Shown: in pieces, positions 14,645 through 31,675 of the stretch
Layout of the letters: every line of letters begins with the position of its first letter
Position numbering within the stretch: position 1 is the stretch's first letter
Virus record (IMG/VR): IMGVR_UViG_3300044613_003770
Span: 21,304 to 85,303 of that record
Length of the DNA: 64,000 nt
Reading direction: 5' to 3' (one strand)
From: a virus
The notes under the pieces: model-generated
Database searches by the model: none
Told to the model about the DNA's origin: nothing
Seen by the model: the letters and a program-made list of their open reading frames with translations, nothing else
Program-made: the position numbers and the translations under genes

Positions 14645-14719
14645 TTTTTATAAAAAATACATACTTATTTAATATAATATTGTAAGCTTTTGGGTCATCA
14701 ATTAGCTATGTAAATAAAA

Positions 14720-15379: not shown

Positions 15380-15681
15380 GATTTTGGAGCAAGTAGATGT
15401 TTATTCTGCAACACCCAAGGGATTACTAAACTTTCCACACATCTAACATAAGCTTCTTCATCATTGTTTTCCATATAAGCAATACCAGTTAATCTGAATA
15501 TCATATGGGTGATCTCATGAACTAATGTTTGAAAAAAGAATTCGGGGCTTTTAGTCGTTGCTTCTGTTCTAATTTTAATGGTTAAAAAATCAGAATCGCA
15601 TTCTCCCCACGCTTCAAGATCATCCTCATAAATTATTTGTACTTTTCTTCCAATAATATCTAAGGATTTTGGTAGGTTCAT
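15376..15681 (-). CDS. small HExxH metallopeptidase-like protein
   Basis: TLVHEITH motif; GTGTAA 8 nt upstream. Confidence 0.7.
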   Translation of the reverse strand: MNLPKSLDIIGRKVQIIYEDDLEAWGECDSDFLTIKIRTEATTKSPEFFFQTLVHEITHMIFRLTGIAYMENNDEEAYVRCVESLVIPWVLQNKHLLAPKS

Positions 15682-18218: not shown

Positions 18219-18258
18219 GGGGGAAGGGGAGGGGAATTTTTTCCCCTCCCCAACTTTT
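18219..18258 (+). terminator. putative terminator hairpin
   Basis: GGGGAGGGGAA-TTTT-TTCCCCTCCCC directly after the ruvB stop. Confidence 0.55.
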
Positions 18259-18298
18259 CCTGTTGACAATCTCCACAAAACTGCTAACTTTCTCGCAC

Positions 18299-18709
18299 AT
18301 GAATCCCCTACAATACATCGTATCAACCAACGGTCTTGGCATCGCAATCGGCATCTGCGGCGACAAGCAACTCGCACTTCAAGATGCCACACTCGCTGAA
18401 AATATCTATGGATCAAATCATAATGACTCTTTGTTTAACCATTTGCTTTACATGCCTAGCCTTGAGGCATTCAAGAAGTTTCTAATCGTTAAAGAATATT
18501 TCTGTGTTTGGGATGAACACTTTTCCCGAAACAAGGGTACAGGTACTCGCACCAAGGGTAATGTAATGCAATTCACCCGCCGCGCAATCAAACGCGCAAG
18601 ACTTATTATGGATTCTCAAGTTACCTATGAGAACTTCATGCAAAAAATCAGTAACCGCAACCAAGAGTACATGCTTGGCGCACATCAAGATGAACAAGAA
18701 GAAGAGTAA
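18299..18709 (+). CDS. hypothetical protein
   Basis: TTGACA(18263)-N16-TAACTT-N8-ATG. Confidence 0.7.
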   Translation: MNPLQYIVSTNGLGIAIGICGDKQLALQDATLAENIYGSNHNDSLFNHLLYMPSLEAFKKFLIVKEYFCVWDEHFSRNKGTGTRTKGNVMQFTRRAIKRARLIMDSQVTYENFMQKISNRNQEYMLGAHQDEQEEE

Positions 18710-18722
18710 TATAAAAGAATAT

Positions 18723-18929
18723 ATGAAAATACTTGCACCAAACTTTGAAGACATGGAATCTGTTCTTGATTCCTGTGGTCATGAACTAATTAATGAAGTT
18801 AATATTGCTTATGAAAAACTTGGCAAAGATAATCTTTGGGAGTTGACAGATAAGTTCCTAGAGTTTCAACGTCTCCTTCGTCAACAAATTAAAGAGCTTC
18901 ACCCAGACCACAACTTTCAAAACTTCTAA
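18723..18929 (+). CDS. hypothetical protein
   Basis: ORF, start MKILAP. Confidence 0.6.
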   Translation: MKILAPNFEDMESVLDSCGHELINEVNIAYEKLGKDNLWELTDKFLEFQRLLRQQIKELHPDHNFQNF

Positions 18930-18936
18930 TAATTTT

Positions 18937-19011
18937 GGGCTGTTAGTTAAGTGGATATAACAAGAAACTTCTAATTTTTAGTCGATGGTTCGATTCCATC
19001 ACGGCCTACCA
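18937..19011 (+). tRNA. tRNA-Arg (anticodon UCU)
   Basis: Acceptor GGGCTGT/ACGGCCT, D-arm GTTA/TAAC, anticodon arm AGAAA-CT-TCT-AA-TTTTT, T-arm GATGG-TTCGATT-CCATC, encoded CCA. Confidence 0.92.
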
Positions 19012-19032
19012 ATCTAATAATAAATAAATAAT

Positions 19033-19284
19033 ATGTTTACATTCCTTCAACCAAAAAGACAAGTAGTCATTGAGCATAATATCACCTCAAATATTGATGG
19101 CGAGAGATTCGCGCCAGTAGTTATTGATGGAAGTTATTGGGGCGCAGATTTTGACACCTTCAATGGCGACACTCTTATCCATGATGATGGTGAGTACGGC
19201 AAGATCCCTGTCACTTTCCACCAGACATTCTTAACTACCCGCATGACAGACGAACAACTTCTCCGTAAATACAGAAACATATGA
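19033..19284 (+). CDS. hypothetical protein
   Basis: ORF. Confidence 0.6.
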   Translation: MFTFLQPKRQVVIEHNITSNIDGERFAPVVIDGSYWGADFDTFNGDTLIHDDGEYGKIPVTFHQTFLTTRMTDEQLLRKYRNI

Positions 19285-19508
19285 AACTAATCGTAACAGA
19301 AGAAGATCTCATCCTTGATACCGAACAAGGAACTTACACAATAAAACGCGCCCATGAAGAAGATGAGTGGCATTCAATTACTGAATTTGTTGATTTAAAT
19401 TTTTTCTACGATTCATATGATGATAAATACCATGCCGCAATCTATCTTGTTTTAGAAGGACAAACCCAAACAGATACAGGGTGTGAGATCGAAGTAGAAT
19501 TCACATAA
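19281..19508 (+). CDS. acidic hypothetical protein
   Basis: ATGA overlap. Confidence 0.6.
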   Translation: MKLIVTEEDLILDTEQGTYTIKRAHEEDEWHSITEFVDLNFFYDSYDDKYHAAIYLVLEGQTQTDTGCEIEVEFT

Positions 19509-19512
19509 TGTG

Positions 19513-19594
19513 AAATAATAAACTGCCAAATAATAAAAGGCTAAATAACAAAATAGCAAATAATAAAATAGCAAATAATAAAACGCTTAATAAA
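19513..19594. repeat. about 15-bp tandem repeat (GCAAATAATAAAATA-like, about 5 copies) at the convergence point
   Basis: read directly from sequence. Confidence 0.75.
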
Positions 19595-19626
19595 CCCGTG
19601 GAATTCGACGGGTTAAAGGGGGTCGG

Positions 19627-19671
19627 AACTTACGTTGCGGCGACCCCTACGGGGTCCAATCGCTGTAAGTT
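19627..19671 (-). repeat. 45-bp dyad element, copy 1 (inverted relative to the others)
   Basis: AACTTAC-gttgcggc-GACCCC-TAC-GGGGTC-caatcgct-GTAAGTT. Confidence 0.95.
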
Positions 19672-19698
19672 TTGGATTCAAGGTCGCAATTTGCGACC

Positions 19699-19893
19699 TT
19701 ATTTGATTTCGTAGCGATCAACAATCTCAAGCGTTTCCGTATCAAGATGGACAACAAAACCCTCTCTCCCTTTTTCAAGTGCGCGTTCTTCCGTCTCCCT
19801 GTCAAGATTTGTTTCTTTCCAGCTTGGAGGCAAACCCTTTGAGTGGACAATGATGCGGGATTGATTAAGGAAGTCTAGTTGGTATGCTCTCAT
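19699..19893 (-). CDS. hypothetical protein
   Basis: ATGA-coupled to the upstream small gene. Confidence 0.6.
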   Translation of the reverse strand: MRAYQLDFLNQSRIIVHSKGLPPSWKETNLDRETEERALEKGREGFVVHLDTETLEIVDRYEIK

Positions 19894-20036
19894 ATTTCTT
19901 TTTTTATTTCTTTTTTTATTTCTTTTTTACCATCGCTGCGCACTCGTTTATTCTGAACGCGCTTCCAGTATTTGCGTAAGTGCTTCCACCATTGAACGGT
20001 TGGAACACTTCCTTTGCTTTTTGCTGAACTACTCAT
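19890..20036 (-). CDS. small basic protein (48 aa, WWKHLR motif)
   Basis: manual ORF MSSSAKSKGSVPTVQWWKHLRKYWKR...(KKEI)3; coupled to neighbours at both ends. Confidence 0.65.
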   Translation of the reverse strand: MSSSAKSKGSVPTVQWWKHLRKYWKRVQNKRVRSDGKKEIKKEIKKEI

Positions 20037-20407
20037 TATTTTTGTGCGAGGATTTGTCTGCCTACGATGACAGCATATTTTGCTTTGTCAATGCTTTTGT
20101 TTGAAACGACTTCGTAGAACTTCCCGATGTCTCGATACGGGTTGTAAGAAACCCACATCCTTGGTTGCAGCTTTGTGCTTTCACCAAGTAAGACAAGATC
20201 ACCCTCAACAAACGCATGGACATTTTTCTTTCTTTCGCGCAGGACTCTTTGACGACCTGCTTCTGATACTTTAAAGGTGACATTCTCAAGAGTGACTTTG
20301 CTGGCGTGAAGCCAAACACGCCAGCCCTTTGGAGTTTTTTCTTGGACGGAGAGTTGTTTTCTGTGGAGGTTAAAGTAAAGCCTAACTTTTTTGTTGGTAG
20401 TTTTCAT
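20036..20407 (-). CDS. conserved phage hypothetical protein
   Basis: YFNLH, FKVSEAGRQRVLRERKKNVHAFV, YNPY; own promoter TTGACA-N16-TAGACT near 20483-20510. Confidence 0.8.
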   Translation of the reverse strand: MKTTNKKVRLYFNLHRKQLSVQEKTPKGWRVWLHASKVTLENVTFKVSEAGRQRVLRERKKNVHAFVEGDLVLLGESTKLQPRMWVSYNPYRDIGKFYEVVSNKSIDKAKYAVIVGRQILAQK

Positions 20408-20539
20408 GGGGATGGAGTTGCCGCTCTTATCGGGCGAGCGGCGAGCCGTCTGTCGATATTCTTTGTACTTTTACTTGAGAGAAGTCTAGCAGGGAGAGTA
20501 GATATGTCAACTATTTTTTATTCTTTTTTTTGAATTAAA

Positions 20540-20584
20540 AACTTACACTCATCGGACCCCGTAGGGGTCGCCGCGATGTAAGTT
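20540..20584 (+). repeat. 45-bp dyad element, copy 2
   Basis: AACTTAC-actcatcg-GACCCC-GTA-GGGGTC-gccgcgat-GTAAGTT. Confidence 0.95.
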
Positions 20585-20606
20585 TCCTCACATGCGGCAA
20601 CCTATG

Positions 20607-20810
20607 TCACCAGAGATCGTGTTCGTCAATTAGCTGTTCCGTTCTGTCTACAAACTCTTGAATCAAACCCATAGGAATTTCAAACTTGGTAAGGACATAA
20701 CCATCAAAAACAAGATGCAATGCCACATCGACAATTTTCTTTTCTTCGATTGTTGCATGGACTAGGTAAAGCCCGTATTCAGTTTCGAGAGTAGTTCGAA
20801 AAATTTTCAT
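20607..20810 (-). CDS. hypothetical protein
   Basis: start MKIFRT; TTGACA-N16-TAGCTT upstream. Confidence 0.65.
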   Translation of the reverse strand: MKIFRTTLETEYGLYLVHATIEEKKIVDVALHLVFDGYVLTKFEIPMGLIQEFVDRTEQLIDEHDLW

Positions 20811-20868
20811 CGCTTGCGACAAGCTATCACAAAGAAGACGGCTGTCAAGATTAAAAGAAGTTCGATGT

Positions 20869-21567
20869 TCATGCTGGCTCCAAAACAAAACCCGTTTCAT
20901 CTTTTTTGGCAAGACCTTTTTCTTTAAGCCCGACGATTTTTCCCTTGCCATCGAGAAAGCGGAGATCGGTATCGTCTCCGTCTACCACATCAAAGCCCTT
21001 GAAACTTTGCGGCAAAGACTTGCGGAAAACCATTGCGACATTGCCACCGCTTGCAAGAAAAGCCTCGGCAATGTTTCCATTCGATTCAGAGCGAGAAAAG
21101 GTCAGGTGATAGTTTTTCGGCATCTCACCAGCGAGAAAAGCAGTCATGCGGTCGGGACTTTTCGTGTAGTCGTAAAACTGCACACTTGGGAAAGTAGCGA
21201 AAACATTTAGGCCGTTGCGTTTGATTTTCTCCCATGGCAAGTCACTTGTGAGGTTTAAGCGGAAGCAAGGTGTCATGCCTTTTTTTTCGGCAGACTTCAT
21301 TGACTTTGCAATTTCTTTCCAAAGGTTGGCGAGGAAAGACTGCTTGTCGGTAAAAAACAAACGAGTCTTTGCGATTCGTGCGCGTTGGACGGAAGACATT
21401 GCCCCACGCCCTGCGGTGTTGAGACAAGCGGCGGCGCAACCTTTGCTTGCGTCTTTGCATACATTAAACCCCGAAAGGTTAGCGGGTGCAAGGTGCAAAC
21501 CGTAGGTGATAAAACCCTTCTTCTCTCCCTTGCGCGTCTTGGCGTTTCCTGTGTTGAGTAGTGACAT
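20869..21567 (-). CDS. Gp88-family protein (Cys-cluster, radical-SAM-like)
   Basis: NVCxxASxGCxxACL, RLNxTSD, FYDYTK, NYHLTFS, DGDxTDLRFLD; TTGCCA-N16-TATGCT-N6-ATG. Confidence 0.75.
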   Translation of the reverse strand: MSLLNTGNAKTRKGEKKGFITYGLHLAPANLSGFNVCKDASKGCAAACLNTAGRGAMSSVQRARIAKTRLFFTDKQSFLANLWKEIAKSMKSAEKKGMTPCFRLNLTSDLPWEKIKRNGLNVFATFPSVQFYDYTKSPDRMTAFLAGEMPKNYHLTFSRSESNGNIAEAFLASGGNVAMVFRKSLPQSFKGFDVVDGDDTDLRFLDGKGKIVGLKEKGLAKKDETGFVLEPA

Positions 21568-21675
21568 GGCCAAAGCATAGCATTTGAGGCGAGCATGGCA
21601 AGAGATTTTCTTACAATTTTTTTTCCGATAAATAGTGTTTTTTTCTTGACAAGCCATAAGCCATTCATGCTTAGA

Positions 21676-21720
21676 AACTTACGCCAATCGGACCCCTTCG
21701 GGGTCGCCGCGATGTAAGTT
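21676..21720 (+). repeat. 45-bp dyad element, copy 3
   Basis: AACTTAC-gccaatcg-GACCCC-TTC-GGGGTC-gccgcgat-GTAAGTT. Confidence 0.95.
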
Positions 21721-21732
21721 TTTCCTGTAGAC

Positions 21733-21763
21733 AAAAAAACCCCCGCCCTTTCGGGCGAGGGTT
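21733..21763 (-). terminator. rho-independent terminator
   Basis: AACCCTCGCCC-GAAA-GGGCGGGGGTT followed by a T run on the - strand. Confidence 0.8.
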
Positions 21764-21777
21764 CGTTTGCTTTACGC

Positions 21778-22572
21778 TTACGCTCCAACGACGACGAGCG
21801 TTTCCATTTCCTCCCCCGCATCAGCGGGATCGATTTCGGCCTCGATGGTCGGGCGATGCCCAGCGATGCGGTCAAAGACCGATTGAGCAGTCATCGTGCG
21901 AAACGGCAACTTGGACAGATCACCGCCCTTGAGGTTTTCGGTGATGGAGTTGTAAAGCGTCCAGAGTGTGCCACCCTTGAACTCGTCATGGCGAGGGTTG
22001 CGAAACTCTTGCACGGCGGCGTAAATGTCACGGGCGGGAAACGCTTTGACATCCACAAGGTCGATCAGCAAGTCAGCGGCACGATCACGGGAAATTTCGG
22101 TTTCCTTGTAAAGCTCGATGCGCTTGCCCATGTCGGCCCAATGCGAGACAACGCGAGCGACTGCATCGGAGAGAACGCGAGGAAGGTCAGCGATGATGTT
22201 CGTGGTGTGGCGGCGAGCCAACTTGATGTCGGAAGAGAAGCAAAGATTCTCGCAAACCATCATGCGATTCCCCACGCAAATGCTTGCGGCAAAGGACTTG
22301 TCGTGTGCGTTGCGTAGACCAAGCACGATTTGACGATCAGAACCAGTGATGTCCGCGCCCTTGAGAGCAAACCCGCCAAAGTAGCGTTGACCGCCACGGG
22401 CGAGCGAATGTTCTTCCAGCGACACTTCAAGCCCTGCGCGTCCGATTGCCTCACGAGTCATTTCGACAAGCGAGAAATGCGGGATGGGTTGGAAGCGGTC
22501 AGCGGCTTCGGGAGTCTCAACGCCCATGAGTTGCTCGGCGTTCACTTTGTTTTTTGCGATGATCAGTGACAT
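21778..22572 (-). CDS. DUF932-family protein
   Basis: PIPH, LGLRNAHDKS, G..VCENL.F, RRHT, TLWTLYN..TE. Confidence 0.75.
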   Translation of the reverse strand: MSLIIAKNKVNAEQLMGVETPEAADRFQPIPHFSLVEMTREAIGRAGLEVSLEEHSLARGGQRYFGGFALKGADITGSDRQIVLGLRNAHDKSFAASICVGNRMMVCENLCFSSDIKLARRHTTNIIADLPRVLSDAVARVVSHWADMGKRIELYKETEISRDRAADLLIDLVDVKAFPARDIYAAVQEFRNPRHDEFKGGTLWTLYNSITENLKGGDLSKLPFRTMTAQSVFDRIAGHRPTIEAEIDPADAGEEMETLVVVGA

Positions 22573-22738
22573 ATTGTTTTTTTCTATTGGTTGGAGTTGG
22601 ATGCGCCATCAGCGGCGACAAGGACAAGGTAGCAAAACCAGCGAGTTTGTCCACACATTTTTCATTGTTTTTGTGTTTTTGTTTTTTGAGCCAGGTGTGC
22701 TTTTTTGCTTGACATGGCATAAGTGATTGAGGATCAAA

Positions 22739-22783
22739 AACTTACACCCCCAAGACCCCTTCGGGGTCCGAACCATGTAAGTT
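22739..22783 (+). repeat. 45-bp dyad element, copy 4 (diverged spacers, same lengths)
   Basis: AACTTAC-acccccaa-GACCCC-TTC-GGGGTC-cgaaccat-GTAAGTT. Confidence 0.95.
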
Positions 22784-22835
22784 TTTTAGGCATAAGTTAG
22801 GAAGGGATCGCACTTTGCGACCCCTTCCCGTTATG

Positions 22836-23150
22836 TCAACCCACCCTTGCGAAACTTCTGATTGGATGATCGCCAACTACCTGTGGCACAAAGTCAATCG
22901 TCGGAGAGTCACCGAATTTGTTTTTGTAAGCTCGGAGAAAGGCTGTCAAGTCGCAATCTTCTTCAAGGTAGAAGTTTGATTTGTCTTGGTAGCTGTAGTG
23001 GCTTAACTTTACGCCAAGAGCTTCGACTTCCCGCTTTGGCACTTCAAGCCATCCATGACCTGCGTCAGTATGGAGCTTGAGGATGAGTGTCTTTTGTGGT
23101 TCGCTTTCGAGGTAGCCAACGCCGCCTCCTTCAAGATGCAATGATTTCAT
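22836..23150 (-). CDS. conserved phage hypothetical protein (HxDxGHGWL...YLEEDCD family)
   Basis: HTDAGHGWLEV, SxYSY, YLEEDCD; followed by a hairpin at about 22799-22829. Confidence 0.75.
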   Translation of the reverse strand: MKSLHLEGGGVGYLESEPQKTLILKLHTDAGHGWLEVPKREVEALGVKLSHYSYQDKSNFYLEEDCDLTAFLRAYKNKFGDSPTIDFVPQVVGDHPIRSFARVG

Positions 23151-23285
23151 GTGTGTTAGGTTGAATGAGTTTGATGAGGTAGTCAATTACTTTTTGCGGC
23201 TGCTCATTAAAAAGAGGATGAGAGCCATTCCGATTATCCATGCGATATGCAATGTGTCCATTATGAATGATAAAAACAAGATGTT

Positions 23286-23597
23286 TCATTGTTTGGAATG
23301 TTTGGTGTGAAAACCCACAAAGTCTTCTGCGAGGTTATTGATTAGTTCTTCTACAAAAGCAAAAGGGCTGGCATCGTCCATCGGGTTCAATTCAAACTTG
23401 GAGATTGCTTCCCAAACTTCGATTTGTTTTTGGTCTTCTTGTTGATTGTCTACGCTGTATTCATCAGCGAGCAAAGCAAGAGCGAGCCTTTCGGCACTCC
23501 AATCTTGCGGCCATTTAGAAAGGAAATGACCTGCGGCGATTAGGTATGCTTCGGCGTGAATGGGATTGTTGGTGTCTATGTGAATGTAGTCTTGCAT
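23286..23597 (-). CDS. hypothetical protein
   Basis: TTGACA-N17-TAACCT-N6-ATG. Confidence 0.7.
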   Translation of the reverse strand: MQDYIHIDTNNPIHAEAYLIAAGHFLSKWPQDWSAERLALALLADEYSVDNQQEDQKQIEVWEAISKFELNPMDDASPFAFVEELINNLAEDFVGFHTKHSKQ

Positions 23598-23606
23598 GGC
23601 TGTAGG

Positions 23607-23813
23607 TTAGTCGTTGGCGTGATGATTGTCAAGAATAAGTTGAAGTTCATCGCGGAGTTCTTCCTCGACTTCACTTTCGCCGCCAGAATATGCTTCCGCA
23701 AGCTCTAATGCTTGTTGGGCAATGTCTTTGAGCTGTTCAATTGTGTTTAGTAGTTCTTCGATTGTGGTCATGTCGATATGTGGGCAACAATTGTGGTTTG
23801 GTTTGTCTGTCAT
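23607..23813 (-). CDS. acidic hypothetical protein
   Basis: start MTDKPN; 3' end contains the next promoter. Confidence 0.6.
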   Translation of the reverse strand: MTDKPNHNCCPHIDMTTIEELLNTIEQLKDIAQQALELAEAYSGGESEVEEELRDELQLILDNHHAND

Positions 23814-23826
23814 GTTGTTTTGTTGG

Positions 23827-24168
23827 TTAGTTTGTTGGGATGAATCTACGGGCGTGAATGTTAAGATTGGAACACCATTTTTTCCAGTTTTTGCCATGAA
23901 AGTCATTGCGGCCATTTTTCTTGTGTGTGCCAAAGAATTTTGTTCTTTCGGTTATGTCAAGAGCGTGTGCGAGTTCATGCAAGAAAACTTCAGAAAACAA
24001 ATGGAAGTTTTGTAGGATTTGATTTGAAAGCTCAATTCTTTTTTCCTCTATACGATAGCAACCCAATCTTCTTTTTGTGTTTGTCCAAAGGACTGGAATG
24101 TGGGTCATGTTATGCTGACGCAAGGTCAAGCGGATGTATTGTTCGGCTTCTTGGTGAGTGATTTTCAT
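23827..24168 (-). CDS. SprT-like zinc metalloprotease domain protein
   Basis: RLGxY, IELS, LHELAHA, HGxxWK. Confidence 0.8.
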   Translation of the reverse strand: MKITHQEAEQYIRLTLRQHNMTHIPVLWTNTKRRLGCYRIEEKRIELSNQILQNFHLFSEVFLHELAHALDITERTKFFGTHKKNGRNDFHGKNWKKWCSNLNIHARRFIPTN

Positions 24169-24212
24169 GCGGGGAAAGTTTGGGGGCTTTCGCCCCCTAT
24201 GTCAACTATTTT

Positions 24213-24695
24213 TTAGACATCAGCAGGAATTTCTTCGTCCTCGTCGTATTCGACAAAGCTAAAGTTTTCTTTTGCAAACTCTATGACATCAGCATCATCG
24301 ACTTGGTTGTCGTCAATTTGACCTTCGGAGATGATAGCAGTCCCAGCAAACCAGCAACCGCCCTCAAAGTAGTCGAGCGTAAATTGATCGTTTGGAAACA
24401 TTTCAGACAGAGCGGCAATCGCTTGAAGTGGTGGACTCCAAGCAGTCATGAATGGAGCTTGAAAGTCGCAATCTTCAGAGATGAGTTGATCAGCAACTTC
24501 GCGTTGCTCTTGTTCACTCAAGTCCCATTTAGTTCCCCAGTTTTCAAGTCTCCAATTATACCATCCATTGCCCTCAAGCAATTCTGGTGGTGTGGGTTTG
24601 ATTTTCTCAAAAGAAAGACCATTTTCTTTTAGATAGCTTTCCAATTCTGGAGAGCAATCCATGACCGACAATTTATTTTCGTTCCAGTTAGGCAT
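24213..24695 (-). CDS. DUF1281/YubB-like (Api92 ferredoxin-like domain) protein
   Basis: MPNWxxN, WYxWRxxNWGTKWD, FxTAWSPP; TTGACT-N17-TACATT-N6-ATG. Confidence 0.8.
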   Translation of the reverse strand: MPNWNENKLSVMDCSPELESYLKENGLSFEKIKPTPPELLEGNGWYNWRLENWGTKWDLSEQEQREVADQLISEDCDFQAPFMTAWSPPLQAIAALSEMFPNDQFTLDYFEGGCWFAGTAIISEGQIDDNQVDDADVIEFAKENFSFVEYDEDEEIPADV

Positions 24696-24722
24696 GGCGG
24701 CAATGTAGGTTAGTGGTTGGGG

Positions 24723-24896
24723 TTAGTCAAGATTTTTTATTAGTGTGTGGGAGTATCTCAAGACATCTCCACAATCATCACAAGGTTCTCCGTTGTCTTG
24801 ATAAAAGTCAGGAGAGACATGGACTTCTTCATTTGTTTCATCATTGATCCAAACATGAAGAACATTTTCATCGTTTATTTTGATCCAATCAGACAT
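24723..24896 (-). CDS. small hypothetical protein (57 aa, PCDDCG)
   Basis: manual ORF; TTGACT-N17-CATACT-N6-ATG. Confidence 0.65.
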   Translation of the reverse strand: MSDWIKINDENVLHVWINDETNEEVHVSPDFYQDNGEPCDDCGDVLRYSHTLIKNLD

Positions 24897-24927
24897 GGCT
24901 TTAGTATGTGTTATTTTTTGGGGTTAG

Positions 24928-25179
24928 TCAATAGGTTTTTGCAAGTAAAACAAGAGGCTTCAATGTGATTGGCTTTTCAGCAACATAAAAGAAAAAACCA
25001 TATTCCAAAACCTCAATGTCGCCATCGACTTCGGCAAGTGAAACATAGTCATCGCCATGATTGTCGGCAACGAATGGGCCTTCATCATCATGCCCGATAA
25101 AGTAAAGCGTATCGTTTAGATCGACAGCATAAGCGTCACTGAGTGCTTCGTGTAGTTGTTCAAGTGTGGTTGTTTGCAT
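24928..25179 (-). CDS. acidic hypothetical protein
   Basis: TTGACT-N16-CATACT-N6-ATG. Confidence 0.7.
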   Translation of the reverse strand: MQTTTLEQLHEALSDAYAVDLNDTLYFIGHDDEGPFVADNHGDDYVSLAEVDGDIEVLEYGFFFYVAEKPITLKPLVLLAKTY

Positions 25180-25205
25180 GGCAGTAGTATGTGTTATTTT
25201 CGGGG

Positions 25206-25346
25206 TTAGTCAACAAGAAATCTGCGCTTCCATTGTGATTCTTGCACCTGCTTATCAAGCCAAGATTGTTGTTCAAAGATGCGCGATCCGTAAATTGATT
25301 TGCGGTCGCGTGTGAATAGTGACAGGATGTGGTTGATGATTTGCAT
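25206..25346 (-). CDS. small hypothetical protein (46 aa)
   Basis: manual ORF MQIINHILSLF...RRFLVD; TTGACA-N16-TAAGTT-N6-ATG. Confidence 0.6.
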   Translation of the reverse strand: MQIINHILSLFTRDRKSIYGSRIFEQQSWLDKQVQESQWKRRFLVD

Positions 25347-25510
25347 GGGGGAAACTTAACACAAAGACGCGAGGTGTCAAATTTTATTTTCAGAATAAAC
25401 TGCAATTTTCTTCTTGACAAATCAACACTAGCAAATAGCAAAATAGTAAATAGCAAATCAGTTAATAGCTAATAGACTACAGGCGCGGCTGTAAGTCATT
25501 GAGGATTAAA

Positions 25511-25555
25511 AACTTACACCAATCGGACCCCGTAGGGGTCGCCGCGATGTAAGTT
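25511..25555 (+). repeat. 45-bp dyad element, copy 5
   Basis: AACTTAC-accaatcg-GACCCC-GTA-GGGGTC-gccgcgat-GTAAGTT. Confidence 0.95.
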
Positions 25556-25576
25556 CTTGGCGACCAATGGGTTATG

Positions 25577-25855
25577 TTATTCCTCGTCGCAATCCTCAAT
25601 CGTATCCGATTGCGACACTTCGGGATTGAACGGGCAAGCTTCCAAGACTCCCCAGCATTCTTTCCCTTGGAAGGTGAAGGATACACCCCACACAACCCAA
25701 TTGTATTGCAACTCATCGACAATCTCGCGAAATTGCAGATCGTCAACCTTGCTTGTTGCTATCCTTTGGGGAATGGCAGTGAGGGCGGCGGCTTCCGCGA
25801 GAGCGGCGGCGTATTCTTCGGGCGAAACTTCGGAGGCGAGGTAGGTGATGGACAT
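25577..25855 (-). CDS. acidic hypothetical protein (single-gene module)
   Basis: TTGCGT-N16-TAACTT-N6-ATG; N-terminus paralogous to 27250..27387. Confidence 0.7.
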   Translation of the reverse strand: MSITYLASEVSPEEYAAALAEAAALTAIPQRIATSKVDDLQFREIVDELQYNWVVWGVSFTFQGKECWGVLEACPFNPEVSQSDTIEDCDEE

Positions 25856-25953
25856 GGGAATAAGTTAATCGATTTTAAGAGAAACGCAACAAAAAAGTCA
25901 TTTTTTATTTTTTTTATTTTTACTTGACAAATTGTAACTTATTCATTTTCAAA

Positions 25954-25998
25954 AACTTACACCTATCGGACCCCGTAGGGGTCGCGGCGGTGTAAGTT
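25954..25998 (+). repeat. 45-bp dyad element, copy 6
   Basis: AACTTAC-acctatcg-GACCCC-GTA-GGGGTC-gcggcggt-GTAAGTT. Confidence 0.95.
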
Positions 25999-26065
25999 AT
26001 TCATTTTCAAGCGGTTATGATCGCGCCCCCACCACAGAGGCGCGATCTTTTATCCACCCACAAAA

Positions 26066-26230
26066 TTATTCTTGCAATGCGTTTTTGAAGCACCCTGCCC
26101 AAGTCAACGCGAGGCAAAGCCAAAAAACAATAAAGTTTAGATCGTGTGGCACAATGTCATACACTCTCACAATCGAAAAAATTGCAATGTGTAAAGAAGA
26201 AAAGAAAAGACAAAGAGCGGCAGATTTCAT
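26066..26230 (-). CDS. small 2-TM membrane protein (54 aa)
   Basis: manual ORF with two hydrophobic segments. Confidence 0.5.
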   Translation of the reverse strand: MKSAALCLFFSSLHIAIFSIVRVYDIVPHDLNFIVFWLCLALTWAGCFKNALQE

Positions 26231-26291
26231 TTTTTTTTATTTTTAAGGTTGAAAGGTTGGGCCTTTTAGTGTGATGCCCAGCACCGATTTT

Positions 26292-26573
26292 TTATTGAGC
26301 GGCAAAGGTCTTTTCGATTTTCCCGCATTTGAAATGGCGGACGGCTTCGGGTTTGAAGCTGAACCAGCCTTGATTGTTTCGATTGATTGCAGAGAAGTAT
26401 CCAGCCGCCTTCAATCCATCAGTTCCAGCAGAGCCAGTTCCTTTGATCAAACCAATGTATTTGTCCTTGGCGTTGATTTGACGAATCGTGCCATCCTTCT
26501 TTTCAAAGGTGATCGAAAAGAATTTTCCTTTCGTGGCGGCGATCAGTTGTGCGATTTCGTTTTGTGTGGTCAT
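26292..26573 (-). CDS. SH3/Sm-like beta-barrel protein (WYL_2-like)
   Basis: FFSITFEKKDGTIR...GWFSF pattern. Confidence 0.65.
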   Translation of the reverse strand: MTTQNEIAQLIAATKGKFFSITFEKKDGTIRQINAKDKYIGLIKGTGSAGTDGLKAAGYFSAINRNNQGWFSFKPEAVRHFKCGKIEKTFAAQ

Positions 26574-26584
26574 GTTTTTGTTGG

Positions 26585-26719
26585 TTATTGTTTTGAGATC
26601 ATTTCCCGTTCCATCTCGTCGATTTCTTCGGGGGTCATGGTATCCTCGATTTCATGCGCGGCATGGAACATGGCGAGCAATTCAAGGGAATCAGCGTGGG
26701 CGAGTTGGTCAATGGACAT
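26585..26719 (-). CDS. small acidic protein (44 aa)
   Basis: manual ORF; TTGCTA-N16-TAACTT-N6-ATG. Confidence 0.6.
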   Translation of the reverse strand: MSIDQLAHADSLELLAMFHAAHEIEDTMTPEEIDEMEREMISKQ

Positions 26720-26760
26720 GAGAGAAAGTTAGTTGATTTTGAAAGAATAGCAAGAAAAAA

Positions 26761-26955
26761 TTAACCGATTTTCAAATTTTCAACTCGGCTAGATGCAACG
26801 GTATTGACATCGCCGCAGTATGGGTCGCGGTAAATGATGATGAACGCGCCGTCGAGAGTGTCGCGGTCGGTGACGCTTCCCGTCAAATTCATTCCGCAGT
26901 AGGTGAATTCAACAAGGGTATTTAAGCGGGGGCGGGTGGTGGTCGTGTTGGACAT
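26761..26955 (-). CDS. hypothetical protein, paralog of 28152..28346
   Basis: TTGCGT-N16-TAACTT-N6-ATG; GSVTDRxTLDG shared. Confidence 0.75.
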   Translation of the reverse strand: MSNTTTTRPRLNTLVEFTYCGMNLTGSVTDRDTLDGAFIIIYRDPYCGDVNTVASSRVENLKIG

Positions 26956-27100
26956 GTAAGAAAGTTATCACAACTAACTCGAAACGCAACAAAAAAAACA
27001 AAAATCTTTTTCGCCCAGTTGCAATTTTTTTCTTGACAAATAGAATGGGGGGGCTATTGGGGGGGCTGAAGGGAAGATTCATAACTCATTGAAAATCAAA

Positions 27101-27145
27101 AACTTACACCCATCGGACCCCTTCGGGGTCGCCGCGATGTAAGTT
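27101..27145 (+). repeat. 45-bp dyad element, copy 7
   Basis: AACTTAC-acccatcg-GACCCC-TTC-GGGGTC-gccgcgat-GTAAGTT. Confidence 0.95.
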
Positions 27146-27249
27146 TCACGGCAACCCCTCACCACTACATTTGCGCCGATATTATGGCAACCACAAGCCA
27201 AATCGCGGCATTTATTCCAATCAAAATTCCAAGTATTTCTTTCATGTTT

Positions 27250-27387
27250 TTATCCTTCCTTTTCGATGTGTTCAAGATACTCCGCGAACGCGAGTTCGGC
27301 GGCTTCCGCGAGGACGGCATCACGCTCCTCGATGGAAATTTCACTGGCAAAGTAGGTGGCGGCGGCGGTAGTGAGGTCGTTGGACAT
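27250..27387 (-). CDS. small acidic protein (45 aa)
   Basis: manual ORF MSNDLTTAAATYFASEISIEERDAVLAEAAEL...; TTGCGT-N16-TAACTT-N6-ATG. Confidence 0.65.
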   Translation of the reverse strand: MSNDLTTAAATYFASEISIEERDAVLAEAAELAFAEYLEHIEKEG

Positions 27388-27493
27388 GCAAGAAAGTTAG
27401 CATGGGATTCAGATAACGCAACAAAAAAGTGTTTTTTATTTATTTTTTTTTGTGTGTTTTTTCTTTACTTTTTGCAATTCGTTGAGCGTAAGA

Positions 27494-27538
27494 AACTTAC
27501 AGCTATCGGACCCCGTAGGGGTCGCGGCGGTGTAAGTT
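27494..27538 (+). repeat. 45-bp dyad element, copy 8
   Basis: AACTTAC-agctatcg-GACCCC-GTA-GGGGTC-gcggcggt-GTAAGTT. Confidence 0.95.
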
Positions 27539-27661
27539 TTTGATTTCCAATGACTTACAACGGCAGCGGCAATGTAGTTATGCTATGCACTATGTGCCAT
27601 ACTACTACAAGCGTAGTAGTAAAGCACACAGCGTTTGCAATGATGTCTTGTAGTTCTTCAC

Positions 27662-27889
27662 TCATACAGACAAGTCGCAGTCTTCTTCTAGAAATTCCAT
27701 TGCGGCTTCTTGTGCGTAGTCAAGTAGCTCACTCATGGGAGTCATGCTGTCTGCTTCTTCTATCATCTCTTCCAATGTGTCCACGTGATCACATAGAAGA
27801 GCGGTATCAGGTAGATCATCGAGTGACAAGCCTGTGATGGCGTAGACTTGTGCGTTGATCATCTTTCGTGCTTTGTTTCGTGCGCTCAT
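27662..27889 (-). CDS. acidic hypothetical protein (GLSLDDLPD motif)
   Basis: ORF. Confidence 0.7.
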   Translation of the reverse strand: MSARNKARKMINAQVYAITGLSLDDLPDTALLCDHVDTLEEMIEEADSMTPMSELLDYAQEAAMEFLEEDCDLSV

Positions 27890-27951
27890 GGTGTGTGTGT
27901 TGTTATTGGTTGATTGGTGTAGTGTCTTTCATATTATTATGCTTGTGTGTG

Positions 27952-28131
27952 TTAGTTATGCTTAACATAGGATTGAAGATGTGCAAGCGCATACATAGTC
28001 GCGCCAAAGGTTAAAAAACATATAGCGTCGAACACTTCGCTTCGTCCTCCGTAGATACAGAAGGCGCAAAGGCTAAAGACAGGCGACATGGTGATGATGG
28101 CAGAGCCAAGGATTGTGATGATGTGTTTCAT
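27952..28131 (-). CDS. small membrane protein (59 aa)
   Basis: manual ORF with two hydrophobic segments. Confidence 0.5.
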   Translation of the reverse strand: MKHIITILGSAIITMSPVFSLCAFCIYGGRSEVFDAICFLTFGATMYALAHLQSYVKHN

Positions 28132-28151
28132 TTTTTTTCTATGTGTTATGT

Positions 28152-28346
28152 TTACCAGACTTTGATGATTTCAATTTGATTCGAACCGATAAAAGCGATG
28201 TCGTTGCAAAGATCGCGATAGATGATGACAAAGCCGCCGTCGAGCGTGTTCCTATCGGTGACGCTACCGCAGAAGCGACGACCTTCATAGCGAAAGTCTA
28301 CAGTAGAGTTAATGCGTGGGCGGGTGGTGGTAGTTGTGTTGGACAT
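28152..28346 (-). CDS. hypothetical protein, paralog of 26761..26955
   Basis: TTGTGT-N16-TAACTT-N6-ATG. Confidence 0.75.
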   Translation of the reverse strand: MSNTTTTTRPRINSTVDFRYEGRRFCGSVTDRNTLDGGFVIIYRDLCNDIAFIGSNQIEIIKVW

Positions 28347-28458
28347 GGGAGAAAGTTAGCAGATGAGAGAGGGAACACAAGAAAAAAATCATTTATTTTT
28401 TTTTACGAAACTGCAATTTTTTTCTTGACAAATAGATATGCGGGGGGGTTTGGGGGGG

Positions 28459-28646
28459 CGCAAATAGCAAATGAATAAATAGCAAATTATCAAATAGCAA
28501 ATAGCAAATGAATAAATAGTAAATAGATTAGCGATTGGGTAATGATTAGCGTGGCGGTAATCATTAGCGTGGCAGTCATGTATTCGCGTGGAATCCTTAG
28601 TGTGGAGGTAATCATTAGCGTGGAACAAATCATTAGCGTGGAACAT
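28459..28646. repeat. short repeat cluster: AAATAGC runs followed by about 5 copies of ATCATTAGCGTGG
   Basis: read directly from sequence. Confidence 0.75.
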
Positions 28647-28735
28647 AGGTTTCGGGGGTGGCGGTCGCGTAAGTTTTCGGGGTGGGTCTGGGCATAAGTT
28701 GGGCGGGGTGGTTTCCCACCCCGCCTTGCCTTGGG

Positions 28736-28933
28736 TCATGCCTTGCGCCACGAGCGCAAGACTTGCGCCGCATAGTCGCGGGGGACATTAAAACTCTTCC
28801 CGTCTTTGTAAATGCCCGCGCCATTGGGAGTCATGACATAGTTTCGGATCGTGAAGAGGTGGAAATTTCCACAAGGGGAAAAATGGGAGTTCGTGCGAAA
28901 ATTGCCTTTTCTGAGATAGCTTTTGATTTTCAT
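28736..28933 (-). CDS. small basic hypothetical protein
   Basis: ORF co-directional with the array. Confidence 0.55.
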   Translation of the reverse strand: MKIKSYLRKGNFRTNSHFSPCGNFHLFTIRNYVMTPNGAGIYKDGKSFNVPRDYAAQVLRSWRKA

Positions 28934-28988
28934 GAGTCTGATTTTTTAAGGTTGGCAGGGCCGCCCTTGCGGCCCTGCTTGTCGTGGT

Positions 28989-29333
28989 TTAGCCCTTGGC
29001 GATACCTTGCCAAGTGGCGCGGGTTGCGGTTTGTCCTTCAACCCTCCCAAGAGCGGCGGCCTTGCAAAGGGTCTGGAATTTTTCGACCGCTTTTTTTTCA
29101 GCGGCGGACATAAAGGAAAGGGCGGATTCCTTGTCAGCATTGGAAACACTCGCGCTTGCCTTCGTGGTGATTTCCTCGCCGACGATTTCCAGCGCAAGCG
29201 TGAAGCTGTAGGCGTGACCATCGGGACTTGCTCCCATAGCGAGAGCGATTTCGCCAATGGTGGATGTTCCTTTGATGGGAAGCGCGATCTTGCTCGCGCT
29301 GGGCTTCGTGGTGGTGGTGGTGGTGGTGGTCAT
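28989..29333 (-). CDS. hypothetical protein with poly-Thr N-terminus; first gene of the - strand block
   Basis: MTTTTTTTTKPSASK...; followed by a GC hairpin at about 28955-28978. Confidence 0.65.
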   Translation of the reverse strand: MTTTTTTTTKPSASKIALPIKGTSTIGEIALAMGASPDGHAYSFTLALEIVGEEITTKASASVSNADKESALSFMSAAEKKAVEKFQTLCKAAALGRVEGQTATRATWQGIAKG

Positions 29334-29621
29334 GTGATGGAGTCGCTCGCGGCGACAAAGGAAAGATGCCACAAGCGGGAAAAATTGAAAGATTTTTCTT
29401 CGATTTTCTGAAAAAAGTTTTTTCAACGAAATGCGAAATTTTCTTGACAGCCTCCCCCCATTTCTCGGAAAAATTGCAAACGAACATCGCAGCCATCGGG
29501 GGGGGGACACTTTTTTCAATCTCCCCTAAAAATTACAATATTAGTATTTTCGTTGGCCTCAAAAAAAATCCGCCACTTAATTTCAAAAAACCTAATAAAA
29601 TATTTAGTGTAATCATTAAGT

Positions 29622-31339: not shown

Positions 31340-31675
31340 ATGAATCACATATTTTGCTCTAACTGCGGGAACAAGATACAATATAATTTAGCAAAACCAA
31401 ACTTTTGTACAAAGTGTGGTAATTCACTATCGTCTCTAACCGCTTCGAGCCAAGTGGTTGAAAAAAAAGTTGTGCCAAAATTGGATATTGATCTTGAAGA
31501 AGATGAAACCGATATCGATGATATACCGAACTTAAGAAAAATCGCAGTTGAAATTGAAAATTTTTCTGAAAATTCATCGTTCACATTAGGAAATTTATTT
31601 GGCACTCCAACCCAAGCATTCAAAGGGCGTAAAAACCGTTCTGTAGATGAATTTATTGATGAAAAGAAAGCCTAA
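31340..31675 (+). CDS. zinc-ribbon protein
   Basis: FCSNCG...FCTKCG. Confidence 0.75.
   Translation: MNHIFCSNCGNKIQYNLAKPNFCTKCGNSLSSLTASSQVVEKKVVPKLDIDLEEDETDIDDIPNLRKIAVEIENFSENSSFTLGNLFGTPTQAFKGRKNRSVDEFIDEKKA

What the first reader, a model, noticed from the sequence alone, without database searches (positions are those of the whole stretch)
19627..27538. Cassette-like array of small-gene modules delimited by eight strictly spaced 45-bp dyads
Seen: eight copies of AACTTAC-N8-GACCCC-N3-GGGGTC-N8-GTAAGTT at 19627 (inverted), 20540, 21676, 22739, 25511, 25954, 27101 and 27494. Arms and the 8/3/8 spacing are invariant while spacer sequences drift (both are replaced in copy 4). Each interval (about 0.4-2.8 kb) holds one or a few - strand genes with their own promoter. 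At copies 3, 4 and 6 the dyad sits between a terminator-like hairpin and the next promoter, so it is probably untranscribed and acts as DNA. The single inverted copy closes the array exactly where transcription converges with the + strand block. Inference: this is a phage gene-shuffling platform (integron- or pdif-like, but with a site I do not recognise) for early host-takeover or anti-defence genes. Alternatives are an array of binding sites that organises early DNA or paces its entry, or an analogue of the T4-type PeSL promoter stem-loop cassettes. No recombinase is visible in this window.
Basis: partly seen in the sequence, partly recalled or inferred. Interest (0 to 1): 0.92.

Follow-up and report, generated by a model that had tools for sequence, protein, structure and literature searches.

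The report
Repeated hairpin boundaries between phage early-gene modules
An uncultured freshwater phage separates its small early-type gene units with copies of one strictly conserved palindromic element, which most likely marks the end of each transcript and gives related phages matching sequence at which to swap gene modules, much like the known PeSL cassettes of T4-type phages.

Summary
Eight exact copies of the 45-bp dyad lie at the stated coordinates (0 expected by chance), and a ninth half copy lies at 28655-28675. The dyad is the core of a larger element. In relatives it is a ~95-bp composite palindrome, found in at least 14 IMG/VR contigs of lake phages and in none of 185,579 prokaryote genomes. 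It lies at the 3' end of each transcription unit, often 12-36 nt after a stop codon, so it is transcribed. The next unit's sigma-70-like, nearly leaderless promoter follows 100-170 nt downstream. G-U wobbles favour pairing on the mRNA-sense strand. A sister lineage with the same genes has ordinary terminators in this place. Gene content and order differ between relatives. Three of four mapped junctions lie in or at the element and one lies at a start codon, so exchange looks homologous, not site-specific. No integrase, resolvase or Y1 transposase was found in the 85-kb record, which is 68% complete. Best reading (0.45): a transcript-end hairpin paired with a promoter, a PeSL-like cassette. The invariant GACCCC/GGGGTC core and the G-N-A loop found on either strand remain unexplained and suggest an unknown sequence-specific factor. 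Only first-reader notes on this same stretch existed earlier in the scan.

The parts
19627..19671 (+). Dyad copy 1. It is inverted relative to the others and lies where + strand and - strand transcription converge.
   Evidence: It lies between a + strand hairpin (19596-19617) and the hairpin at 19680-19700.
20540..20584 (-). Dyad copy 2. It starts 22 nt after the stop of gene 20607-20951.
21676..21720 (-). Dyad copy 3. It follows the canonical terminator after the DUF932 gene.
21737..21764 (-). Canonical intrinsic terminator: a 12-bp stem followed by a T-run. It resembles the terminators of sister lineage L010.
22739..22783 (-). Dyad copy 4, with both spacers replaced. A hairpin without a T-run lies upstream at 22800-22828.
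25511..25555 (-). Dyad copy 5. It starts 21 nt after the stop of gene 25577-25855. A recombination junction against L008 lies inside it.
25954..25998 (-). Dyad copy 6. Homology with L008 ends 8 nt after its 3' edge. A hairpin lies upstream at 26019-26047.
27101..27145 (-). Dyad copy 7. It starts 19 nt after a stop codon.
27494..27538 (-). Dyad copy 8. It ends the unit that runs from 28346 down to 27662.
28655..28675 (-). Degenerate left-half copy (left arm, spacer, core half with 1 mismatch), after the hairpin at 28702-28725.
25486..25510 (-). Example of the conserved downstream flank, a small palindrome of the type TTTRAnnnTCAAT followed by GAnTTAY. Similar flanks lie at 22714-22738, 25929-25953, 27076-27100 and 27469-27493.
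25413..25419 (-). TGTCAAG motif followed by an A-run, lying between the element and the promoter. Other copies are at 21645, 22708, 25923, 27032, 28424 and 29443.
25862..25889 (-). Promoter-like TTGCGT-N16-TAACTT, 6 nt before the ATG of gene 25577-25855, giving a nearly leaderless mRNA. Same layout at 26962-26989 and 27394-27421.
   Evidence: read directly from the sequence. Function is inferred.
20483..20510 (-). Promoter-like TTGACA-N16-TAGACT of the unit that holds the L5 gp82-like gene.
19699..29519 (-). Block of about 27 small - strand genes with higher G+C (42-47%). It includes L5 gp82-like (20036-20407), GP88 (20869-21657), DUF932 (21778-22572), SprT-like (23827-24168) and Api92-like (24213-24695) genes. 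Most of the rest are ORFans.

Best explanation
The 45-bp dyad is the core of a composite palindrome of 45 to about 95 nt. It is transcribed at the 3' end of every early-type transcription unit and folds on the mRNA-sense strand. It acts as the unit's boundary: a terminator or 3'-end protecting hairpin. In the window's lineage it is helped by the U-run after the outer arm, and in lineage A by a U-run after the core. Together with the conserved TGTCAAG/A-tract and the sigma-70-like, nearly leaderless promoter 100-170 nt downstream, it forms a repeated terminator-plus-promoter cassette. Because the same sequence recurs 8-11 times per genome and is shared between phage lineages, it is the preferred substrate for homologous recombination, which deletes, duplicates, replaces and reorders gene modules. 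This works like the PeSL cassettes of T4-type phages. Shown: position, orientation, conservation, strand bias, module flux and junction positions. Inferred: termination or 3'-end formation itself, early timing, and the homologous nature of the exchange.
For: 1. Position at 3' ends. Stop-to-dyad distance is 19-22 nt at copies 2, 5 and 7 and 12-36 nt in lineage B. The first unit has no element upstream. The last unit has one downstream, or two in tandem in L013 and L014, with no promoter or gene after it.
2. The distance to the next promoter varies. Dyad to TGTCAAG is 24-91 nt, so the element is not phase-locked to the promoter.
3. Sister lineage L010/L016 has the same genes and promoter layout but no dyad. 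There, canonical terminators occupy the unit ends.
4. Strand bias. Counting majority states per pair and lineage, G-U against A-C is 17:1 for the three-hairpin fold and 11:3 for the long hairpin. As cells the counts are 254:109 and 235:96. This goes against the base skew, because the sense strand is A+C-rich.
5. Mean RNA folding energy of the 45-mer, sense versus antisense: -22.0/-17.7, -26.7/-22.5 and -20.8/-18.5 kcal/mol in lineages A, B and C, and about equal in the window's lineage.
6. The 95-nt form folds as RNA to -44.8 kcal/mol (z -7.3).
7. A U-run follows the outer arm in 5 of 7 window copies and follows the core in lineage A.
8. The inverted copy 1 faces the converging + strand block. 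An inverted copy in L098 appears to sit likewise where + strand ORFs end, but the facing - strand ORF was not checked.
9. Module flux. L013 and L014 differ by indels of exactly one repeat unit. One window module is replaced in L008, with both junctions at dyads. Gene order is permuted between lineages while orientation is kept. The window's DUF932 module with its terminator is closer to L010 (86%) than to L013 (74%).
10. PeSLs are defined as a stem-loop terminator plus an early promoter that mediate such shuffling by homologous recombination (PMC2839356, PMC4122927).
Against: 1. Lineages B and C have no U-run after either stem.
2. Copy 3 follows a strong canonical terminator and so would rarely be transcribed.
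3. A purely structural hairpin should show compensated stem changes. Instead the 6-bp core never varies in 66 distinct copies from four lineages, and an arms-only search found no core variant.
4. Outer arms vary without compensation: GAGTTAC..GTAAGTC 9 times and ..GTAAGTG 8 times.
5. Overall pairing barely exceeds column shuffles, 79.2% against 77.4%, and pairs with double changes are 16 against 15.7.
6. The loop is always G-W-A or its complement, on either strand in equal numbers: 20/16/16/15. This looks like a DNA hairpin or cruciform feature (N4 promoters, PMC4496689) rather than an RNA one.
7. No transcript ends were observed. The runs available were contigs only.
Confidence: 0.45

Rival explanations
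1. The element is a double-stranded DNA site, or a protein-stabilised cruciform, for a dedicated sequence-specific protein. A dimer would read the GACCCC-N3-GGGGTC core, with further contacts on the ACTTAC/GTAAGT and GTTGA/TCAAC half-sites. Binding would block or regulate transcription between units, as a roadblock or shut-off operator. This would be comparable to the stoperators of Cluster A mycobacteriophages or the invariant 7-3-7 palindromes of Cluster O.
For: The core is invariant while spacers are lineage-specific. Arm variants are uncompensated, as expected for degenerate half-sites. The central triplet occurs in both orientations, exactly as reported for the Cluster O repeat, whose authors proposed dimeric regulators (PMC4351075). 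Double changes between lineages keep the symmetry at three pairs. Sister lineage L010 has another repeated palindrome downstream of a true terminator, where it can hardly act as RNA. The element is absent from prokaryote genomes, so any reader of it is probably phage-encoded.
Against: The G-U over A-C bias on the sense strand is not expected for a symmetric duplex site. No DNA-binding domain was detected in the array's small proteins. The sites lie at unit ends rather than at promoters, and their distance to promoters varies. Stoperators are asymmetric 13-mers bound by an immunity repressor (PMC9283540, from its abstract; the 13-bp length is from my own knowledge), and no such repressor is seen here.
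Confidence: 0.25
2. The element is an RNA processing or decay signal in read-through early transcripts. It would be an RNase III-type substrate (two stems around an internal loop, like the sites between T7 early genes) or the target of a phage endoribonuclease that times early mRNA decay.
For: The element is transcribed, and in lineage B no other terminator lies between units. The long, near-continuous helix with an 8x8 or 4x4 internal loop has the size of an RNase III substrate. Sense-strand bias. The resemblance to T7 sites is from my own knowledge and was not tested.
Against: Downstream genes are leaderless with their own promoters, so processing is not needed to express them. Loops differ between copies (GAA against UUC). 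No cleavage data exist. There is no Rfam match.
Confidence: 0.12
3. The dyads are sites of a site-specific or structure-specific recombination system that excises and inserts promoter-gene cassettes, an integron-like platform with a new kind of site.
For: Three of four junctions lie in or at the element. Gene order is permuted with orientation kept. Tandem 96-bp copies occur. The C-GNA-G triloop favours hairpin extrusion. A RuvB-like ATPase and an ERCC4 nuclease are encoded nearby. The record is only 68% complete, so a recombinase could be missing.
Against: One junction lies at a start codon. Junction positions within the element differ. No hit to Phage_integrase, Resolvase or Y1_Tnp. The arms do not fit the attC R''/R' consensus. 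Units have their own promoters. The site sequence is conserved instead of variable. Homologous exchange between 45-95-bp repeats explains all observed events.
Confidence: 0.07
4. The core hairpin is an N4-type DNA hairpin promoter for a virion RNA polymerase.
For: A 6-bp stem, a 3-nt loop and a C-GNA-G closing motif are the features needed for N4 promoter extrusion (PMC4496689).
Against: The GNA loop lies on the template strand in only about half of the copies. Every unit has its own sigma-70-like promoter next to its ATG. Terminal copies have no gene downstream. The only giant ORF is a tape measure protein.
Confidence: 0.02

Closest known systems
PeSL (promoter-early stem-loop) cassettes of T4-type phages (PMC2839356, PMC4122927)
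   Same: A repeated composite of a stem-loop at the end of one small gene and a strong early promoter for the next. It is concentrated in a plastic region of ORFans. Indels, replacements and reshuffling between relatives have junctions in the repeated motif and also near the promoter or start codon.
   Different: No sequence relation, and a different phage group (a large lake phage with a 3286-aa tape measure protein). The hairpin part is a much larger composite palindrome with an invariant core and lies 100-170 nt from the promoter. Neither terminator activity nor mini-circles have been shown here.
17-bp palindromic repeat of Cluster O mycobacteriophages, TGTTCGG-N3-CCGAACA (PMC4351075)
   Same: A short inverted repeat with a 3-bp centre. 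The arms are invariant over more than 30 copies. The central triplet occurs in both orientations. The repeat is mostly intergenic in one long early-type operon block. Recombination between copies has made indels. It is absent from host genomes, and its function is unknown.
   Different: Different sequence. Here the 6-3-6 core is nested inside outer arms and flanking palindromes. It lies at every unit end rather than being scattered, and never inside genes.
Intrinsic (factor-independent) terminators
   Same: A G+C-rich hairpin just after stop codons, in sense orientation. A U-run follows in two lineages. The position is the same as that of true terminators in the sister lineage.
   Different: The sequence is invariant instead of merely structured. 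There are large internal loops. Two lineages have no U-run. One copy lies behind a genuine terminator.
Integron attC sites and cassette arrays
   Same: Imperfect palindromes that punctuate a one-way array of small genes whose content and order vary.
   Different: No integrase, attI or common promoter. Each unit has its own promoter. The site sequence is conserved rather than the structure alone. The arms do not fit the RYYYAAC/GTTRRRY consensus. Junctions are not at one fixed point.
REP/BIME extragenic palindromes of bacteria
   Same: Repeated imperfect palindromes at the 3' ends of genes, sometimes combined with IHF-like sites, with roles in mRNA 3'-end protection and weak termination (from my own knowledge).
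   Different: This element is phage-borne, has few copies and a different sequence, and no RAYT/Y1 transposase was found.

Membership tests
Integron cassette array (attC) | An adjacent IntI tyrosine recombinase with attI and a common promoter | tested here: not met
   PF00589 gave no match in the 85-kb record, while the controls rang in 14 of 14 genomes. The record is only 68% complete, so absence is not proven.
Integron cassette array (attC) | Sites with RYYYAAC ... GTTRRRY ends, in which the structure is conserved but the sequence is variable | tested here: not met
   The arms are AACTTAC ... GTAAGTT, and the second base A is not Y. The sequence, not only the structure, is conserved, and the core is invariant.
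Integron cassette array (attC) | Mostly promoterless cassettes | tested here: not met
   Every unit carries a -35/-10-like promoter 6-9 nt before its ATG.
Integron cassette array (attC) | Crossover at one fixed position of the site | tested here: not met
   Junctions lie inside the element (A1), at a start codon (A2), 8 nt after the 3' edge, and inside the dyad.
PeSL cassettes (T4-type) | A composite of a stem-loop and a sigma-70-like early promoter, repeated between small non-essential genes | tested here: met
   Layout of all copies in the window, L013, L014 and L101.
PeSL cassettes (T4-type) | Indels and replacements between close relatives bounded by the motifs | tested here: met
PeSL cassettes (T4-type) | The stem-loop is an effective terminator | not testable with these tools
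   Only indirect evidence: position, U-runs in two lineages and strand bias.
PeSL cassettes (T4-type) | Mini-circles formed by exchange between neighbouring motifs | tested here: inconclusive
   Only Logan contigs could be laid. They break at the repeats, and the joints seen are short-sided.
PeSL cassettes (T4-type) | Belongs to T4-like myoviruses and shares the PeSL sequence | tested here: not met
   No nucleotide match in 50,697 phage records. The closest large terminase matches are about 27% identical, to Firmicutes phages.
Intrinsic terminator | A stable G+C-rich hairpin directly followed by a U-tract on the transcribed strand | tested here: inconclusive
   Met in the window's lineage (U-run after the outer arm in 5 of 7 copies) and in lineage A (U-run after the core). 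Not met in lineages B and C.
Stoperator (Cluster A mycobacteriophages) | An asymmetric 13-bp site bound by the immunity repressor, oriented with transcription | tested here: not met
   The element is a 45-95-bp palindrome and no repressor was detected. The stoperator description comes from the abstract of PMC9283540; the 13-bp length is from my own knowledge.
N4-type hairpin promoter | A hairpin with a C-GNA-G loop on the template strand, a start about 11 nt from the loop, and a virion RNA polymerase | tested here: not met
   The loop is on either strand in equal numbers. The giant ORF is a tape measure protein. Each unit has its own sigma-70-like promoter.
REP/BIME with RAYT | An associated Y1 (HUH) transposase | tested here: not met
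   PF01797 gave no match. The record is incomplete.
Any Rfam RNA family | A covariance-model match | tested here: not met
   Only the tRNA-Arg matched. Nothing matched at the dyads at E up to 1.

The most novel reading that the evidence does not exclude
The composite palindrome is the site of a new structure-specific recombination system: a phage 'integron without an integrase'. The hairpins or cruciforms extruded at the C-GNA-G core would be cut and rejoined by a phage enzyme. This enzyme could be one still unseen in the missing third of the genome, or the RuvB-like/ERCC4 pair. The result would be to move promoter-gene cassettes within and between phage genomes.
Probability: 0.07. Interest if true: 0.9.

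Novelty: new variant of a known kind. Interest (0 to 1): 0.55.

Why it matters
If the main reading holds, the PeSL principle is not limited to T4-like phages. That principle is that conserved terminator-promoter boundaries double as recombination handles for shuffling accessory early genes. It would then have arisen independently, with an unrelated and far more elaborate sequence, in a family of large freshwater phages. The array is a ready-made catalogue of exchangeable early genes, most of them ORFans and likely host-takeover or anti-defence candidates. The invariant core, with its lineage-specific spacers and its loop on either strand, points to a still unidentified sequence-specific reader. 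The element-free sister lineage offers a natural control for doing so.

Tried and rejected
- Nucleotide search of the array against 50,697 phage records gave no match.
- Rfam gave nothing at the dyads.
- A pattern scan of 185,579 prokaryote genomes gave 0 hits.
- A literature search for the four core 15-mers gave 0 papers.
- Reads: only Logan contigs were available. They end at the dyads because the dyads are repeats. The few joints were short-sided or 'between: not known'. The one RNA run covered only gene interiors at 90-95% likeness. Nothing can be said about transcript ends, circles or expression.
- Covariation tests of two folds barely exceeded shuffles, so they neither prove nor disprove a structure.
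- Pfam on about 27 array proteins gave five families and no DNA-binding or recombinase domain.
- TTGACA read on the + strand as an antisense promoter was rejected, because no -10 box lies at the right spacing.
- TGTCAA read as a -35 box was rejected, because only one copy has a -10 box 17 nt away.
- Phase-locking of TGTCAAG to the start codon was not convincing. Distances range from 55 to 142 nt in the window and cluster at 95-99 nt in lineages A and B.
- Host: the closest GP88 homologues in genomes lie on MAG contigs labelled Saccharibacteria (139 kb) and Flavobacteriaceae, which are probably mis-binned phage contigs. This is only a weak hint. The host remains unknown, so arguments from host-specific terminator or promoter rules were not used.

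Full report
**1. The observation**

The pattern AACTTAC-N8-GACCCC-N3-GGGGTC-N8-GTAAGTT occurs eight times without mismatch at the stated coordinates. None occurred in 100 shuffles, and allowing three mismatches added nothing. The window is bases 21304-85303 of an 85.3-kb IMG/VR virus record estimated to be 68% complete. The rest of the record holds no copy. A half-site search found a ninth, degenerate left half at 28655-28675 on the - strand (0.04 expected).

**2. The setting**

The phage is large and tailed.
- It has a 3286-aa tape measure protein, a large terminase, a portal, PhoH, ThyX, a sigma-like gene, a RuvB-like ATPase and an ERCC4 nuclease.
- It has no close cultured relative.
- It occurs in lake and freshwater metagenomes of many studies.
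- Most of the genome has 25-37% G+C, but the block 18-30 kb has 40-47%.

That block holds about 27 small genes on the - strand. Among them are homologues of mycobacteriophage L5 gp82 and GP88, a DUF932 protein, a SprT-like protein and an Api92-like protein. The rest are ORFans. I infer from gene content and promoter type that these are early genes. This was not shown.

**3. Anatomy of a unit, read on the - strand**

The order of parts is as follows.
- Stop codon.
- 19-123 nt of spacer.
- The dyad.
- A small flanking palindrome of the type TTTGAnnnTCAAT followed by GAnTTAY.
- In most units, TGTCAAG with an A-run.
- A -35/-10-like promoter (for example TTGCGT-N16-TAACTT) ending 6 nt before the ATG, with no Shine-Dalgarno sequence.

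At copies 2, 5 and 7 the dyad begins 19-22 nt after the stop codon with nothing in between, so RNA polymerase must enter it. Only copy 3 is preceded by a canonical terminator. The first unit, which runs from 29519, has no dyad upstream, while the last unit has one downstream. So dyads go with unit ends, not unit starts.

**4. The family**

Two scans of IMG/VR found the element in at least 14 further contigs, three of them 133-147 kb long. A scan of 185,579 prokaryote genomes found none. I collected 66 distinct copies from four lineages, named here as follows.
- W: the window, L005-L009.
- A: L013-L015 and others.
- B: L092, L101, L103.
- C: L098, L099.

In lineage A the element is a ~95-bp composite. 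From 5' to 3' it consists of CATAAGTY, the small palindrome GTTGAnnnTCAAC, the 45-bp dyad, GTTGAnnnTCAAC again, and GGTTTACG. It sometimes occurs in two or three tandem copies with a 96-bp period, notably at the end of the array. The layout is the same everywhere: element, then GTTAGA-type motifs, TGTCAAG and an A-run, then TTGACA-N17-TAnnnT about 9 nt before the ATG. The ATG lies 145-170 nt after the dyad. In lineage B the stop-to-dyad gap is only 12-36 nt.

**5. What is and is not conserved**

- The core GACCCC/GGGGTC never varies. A search by the arms alone over 1.36 Mb of loci found 74 distinct 45-mers with a perfect core and none with 1-5 core mismatches, so this result is not circular.
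- The loop is always TAC, GAA, TTC or GTA (20/16/16/15 in gene-sense orientation). That is G-W-A on one strand or the other, without preference.
- The N8 spacers are lineage-specific.
- The outer arms vary without compensation.
- Between lineages, three pairs show double changes that keep the symmetry.
- Overall, pairing (79%) hardly exceeds column shuffles (77%), and the number of covarying pairs does not exceed shuffles at all.

**6. RNA or DNA?**

Several lines favour a sense-strand fold, hence RNA.
- Non-Watson-Crick positions are mostly G-U on the sense strand, which would be A-C mismatches on the other strand. By majority state per pair and lineage the ratio is 17:1 for the three-hairpin fold and 11:3 for the long hairpin. 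As cells it is 254:109 and 235:96. The sense strand is A+C-rich, so base composition would predict the opposite.
- The 45-mers fold better in sense in lineages A, B and C and equally in W.
- The 95-nt form gives a ~40-bp RNA helix of -44.8 kcal/mol.
- The position directly after stop codons, the terminal tandem copies without a downstream gene, and the inverted copy facing the converging block all tie the element to the direction of transcription. A copy in L098 looks similar, but the ORF facing it was not verified.
- Sister lineage L010/L016 has the same genes, the same TGTCAAG motif and the same promoter type but no dyad. There, canonical terminators (hairpin plus T-run, 7 copies) stand at the unit ends, followed by a different repeated palindrome, AATCTAACAG-N9/10-CTGTTAGATT, in 12 copies.

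Other lines count against a plain terminator.
- A U-run follows the outer arm in W and the core in A, but neither in B or C.
- The core sequence is invariant.
- The loop rule recalls the C-GNA-G requirement for extrusion of the N4 promoter DNA hairpins (PMC4496689).

I therefore keep a DNA-level protein site as the main rival. I note that some sequence-specific reader is likely under either view.

**7. Is it a recombination platform?**

Gene content and order do differ between relatives.
- L013 and L014 differ by two indels of exactly one repeat unit, by replaced modules and by a tandem triplication of the element.
- The window and L008 differ by one replaced module and one extra dyad.
- The window, lineage A and L010 carry shared genes in permuted order but in the same orientation.
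- The window's DUF932 module, terminator included, is closer to L010 than to lineage A.

Four junctions were mapped.
- One lies inside the element (alignment A1).
- One lies at the start codon, after a shared promoter and 5' leader, outside the element (A2).
- Two belong to the window/L008 replacement. One is 8 nt after the 3' edge of copy 6 and one is inside copy 5.

So the element is the favoured junction but not the only one, and the crossover point is not fixed. No integrase, resolvase or Y1 transposase family matches the record. This pattern is what homologous exchange between the longest shared stretches would give. It is also what was shown for PeSLs, where crossovers also fell near the -10 box and the ribosome-binding site (PMC2839356). 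Copies within one genome resemble each other more than their counterparts in the other genome. For example, the flank loops are AAA in L014 and CGC in L013. This indicates gene conversion.

**8. Comparison with known systems**

In function the element is closest to PeSL cassettes. In form the core is closest to the invariant 7-3-7 palindrome of Cluster O mycobacteriophages. That repeat also has a central triplet in both orientations and recombination between copies, and its function is unknown (PMC4351075). The element is not a member of either family by sequence or phage group. It fails the defining tests for integron attC arrays, stoperators, N4 promoters and REP/RAYT elements (see the membership table).

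**9. Verdict**

It is not supported as a site-specific system. The claim that the dyad is untranscribed is wrong for most copies. Best reading: a transcribed unit-end hairpin coupled to a promoter, serving as a recombination handle (0.45). Rivals are a DNA-binding site (0.25), an RNA processing signal (0.12), a site-specific platform (0.07) and an N4-like promoter (0.02). The invariant core and the loop rule remain unexplained.

Noticed in passing
window 28460-28641: The stretch between the half dyad and the next promoter holds about 6.6 copies of an 18-bp repeat (core CCACGCTAATGATT). These are followed by about nine heptad repeats of the type TTTGCTA on the - strand. The layout looks like iterons, so this could be a replication origin or a regulator array. 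The listed ORF 28389-28751 (120 aa, GTG start) runs across it and is probably not a gene.
   Followed up: partly
window 19513-19583, 25429-25475, 28460-28526; L013 about 9180-9260: The same heptad (TAGCAAA on the + strand) recurs in short tandem arrays at three places in the window. It also occurs downstream of one element in lineage A. Its function is unknown.
   Followed up: no
window 18000-30000 against the rest: The early-type block has 40-47% G+C, while the rest of the genome has 25-37%. Related arrays in other contigs have 41-47%. The block looks like a compositionally distinct, exchangeable compartment.
   Followed up: partly
L010 1600-11200 (IMGVR_UViG_3300017780_006957) and L016: The sister lineage lacks the dyad. 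It has 12 copies of another palindrome, AATCTAACAG-N9/10-CTGTTAGATT, plus scattered CTGTTAGA-type motifs. Each copy lies just after a canonical terminator and before TGTCAAG and the promoter. GTTAGA motifs also occur after the dyad element in lineage A.
   Followed up: partly
window 21645, 22708, 25413, 25923, 27032, 28424, 29443 (+ strand CTTGACA): TGTCAAG followed by an A-run is conserved upstream of the promoters in all lineages, including the dyad-free one. It lies 55-142 nt before the ATG in the window and often 95-99 nt before it in lineages A and B. It could be a factor site or an UP-like element.
   Followed up: partly
window 17319-18218 and 33383-34348: There is a RuvB-like AAA ATPase (RuvB_N and RuvB_C domains) with no RuvA or RuvC seen. 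An ERCC4-type nuclease with an N-terminal C2H2 zinc finger lies next to the large terminase. Both act on branched DNA in other systems. No link to the dyads was shown.
   Followed up: partly
window 48135-57995: A 3286-aa tape measure protein with a chitinase/lysozyme-like domain near residue 2350. This implies an unusually long tail.
   Followed up: no
window 8000-15400: A very A+T-rich stretch (24-27% G+C). It holds a 1359-aa ORF with a glycosyltransferase-like segment, a nucleotide-sugar transferase and a sulfotransferase. This looks like a surface-sugar modification module.
   Followed up: no
window 31647-32360: An ORF with a weak match to sigma-70 region 2. It could be a phage sigma factor for later genes.
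   Followed up: no
L014 13755-13991; L013 13725-13865; L014 17293-17433: The whole ~96-bp element occurs as tandem doublets or a triplet. The doublets lie at the very end of the arrays, with no gene downstream.
   Followed up: partly
L113 (CAZDRR010000001.1, 139 kb), L114, L116: The closest GP88 homologues in 'genomes' lie on MAG contigs labelled Saccharibacteria and Flavobacteriaceae/Flavobacterium. The 139-kb contig has the size of this phage family and may be a mis-binned phage. This is only a weak hint to the host.
   Followed up: no
window 25577-25855 and 27250-27387: These two small genes share their first codons and upstream promoter region, so whole promoter-gene units have been duplicated within the array.
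   Followed up: partly
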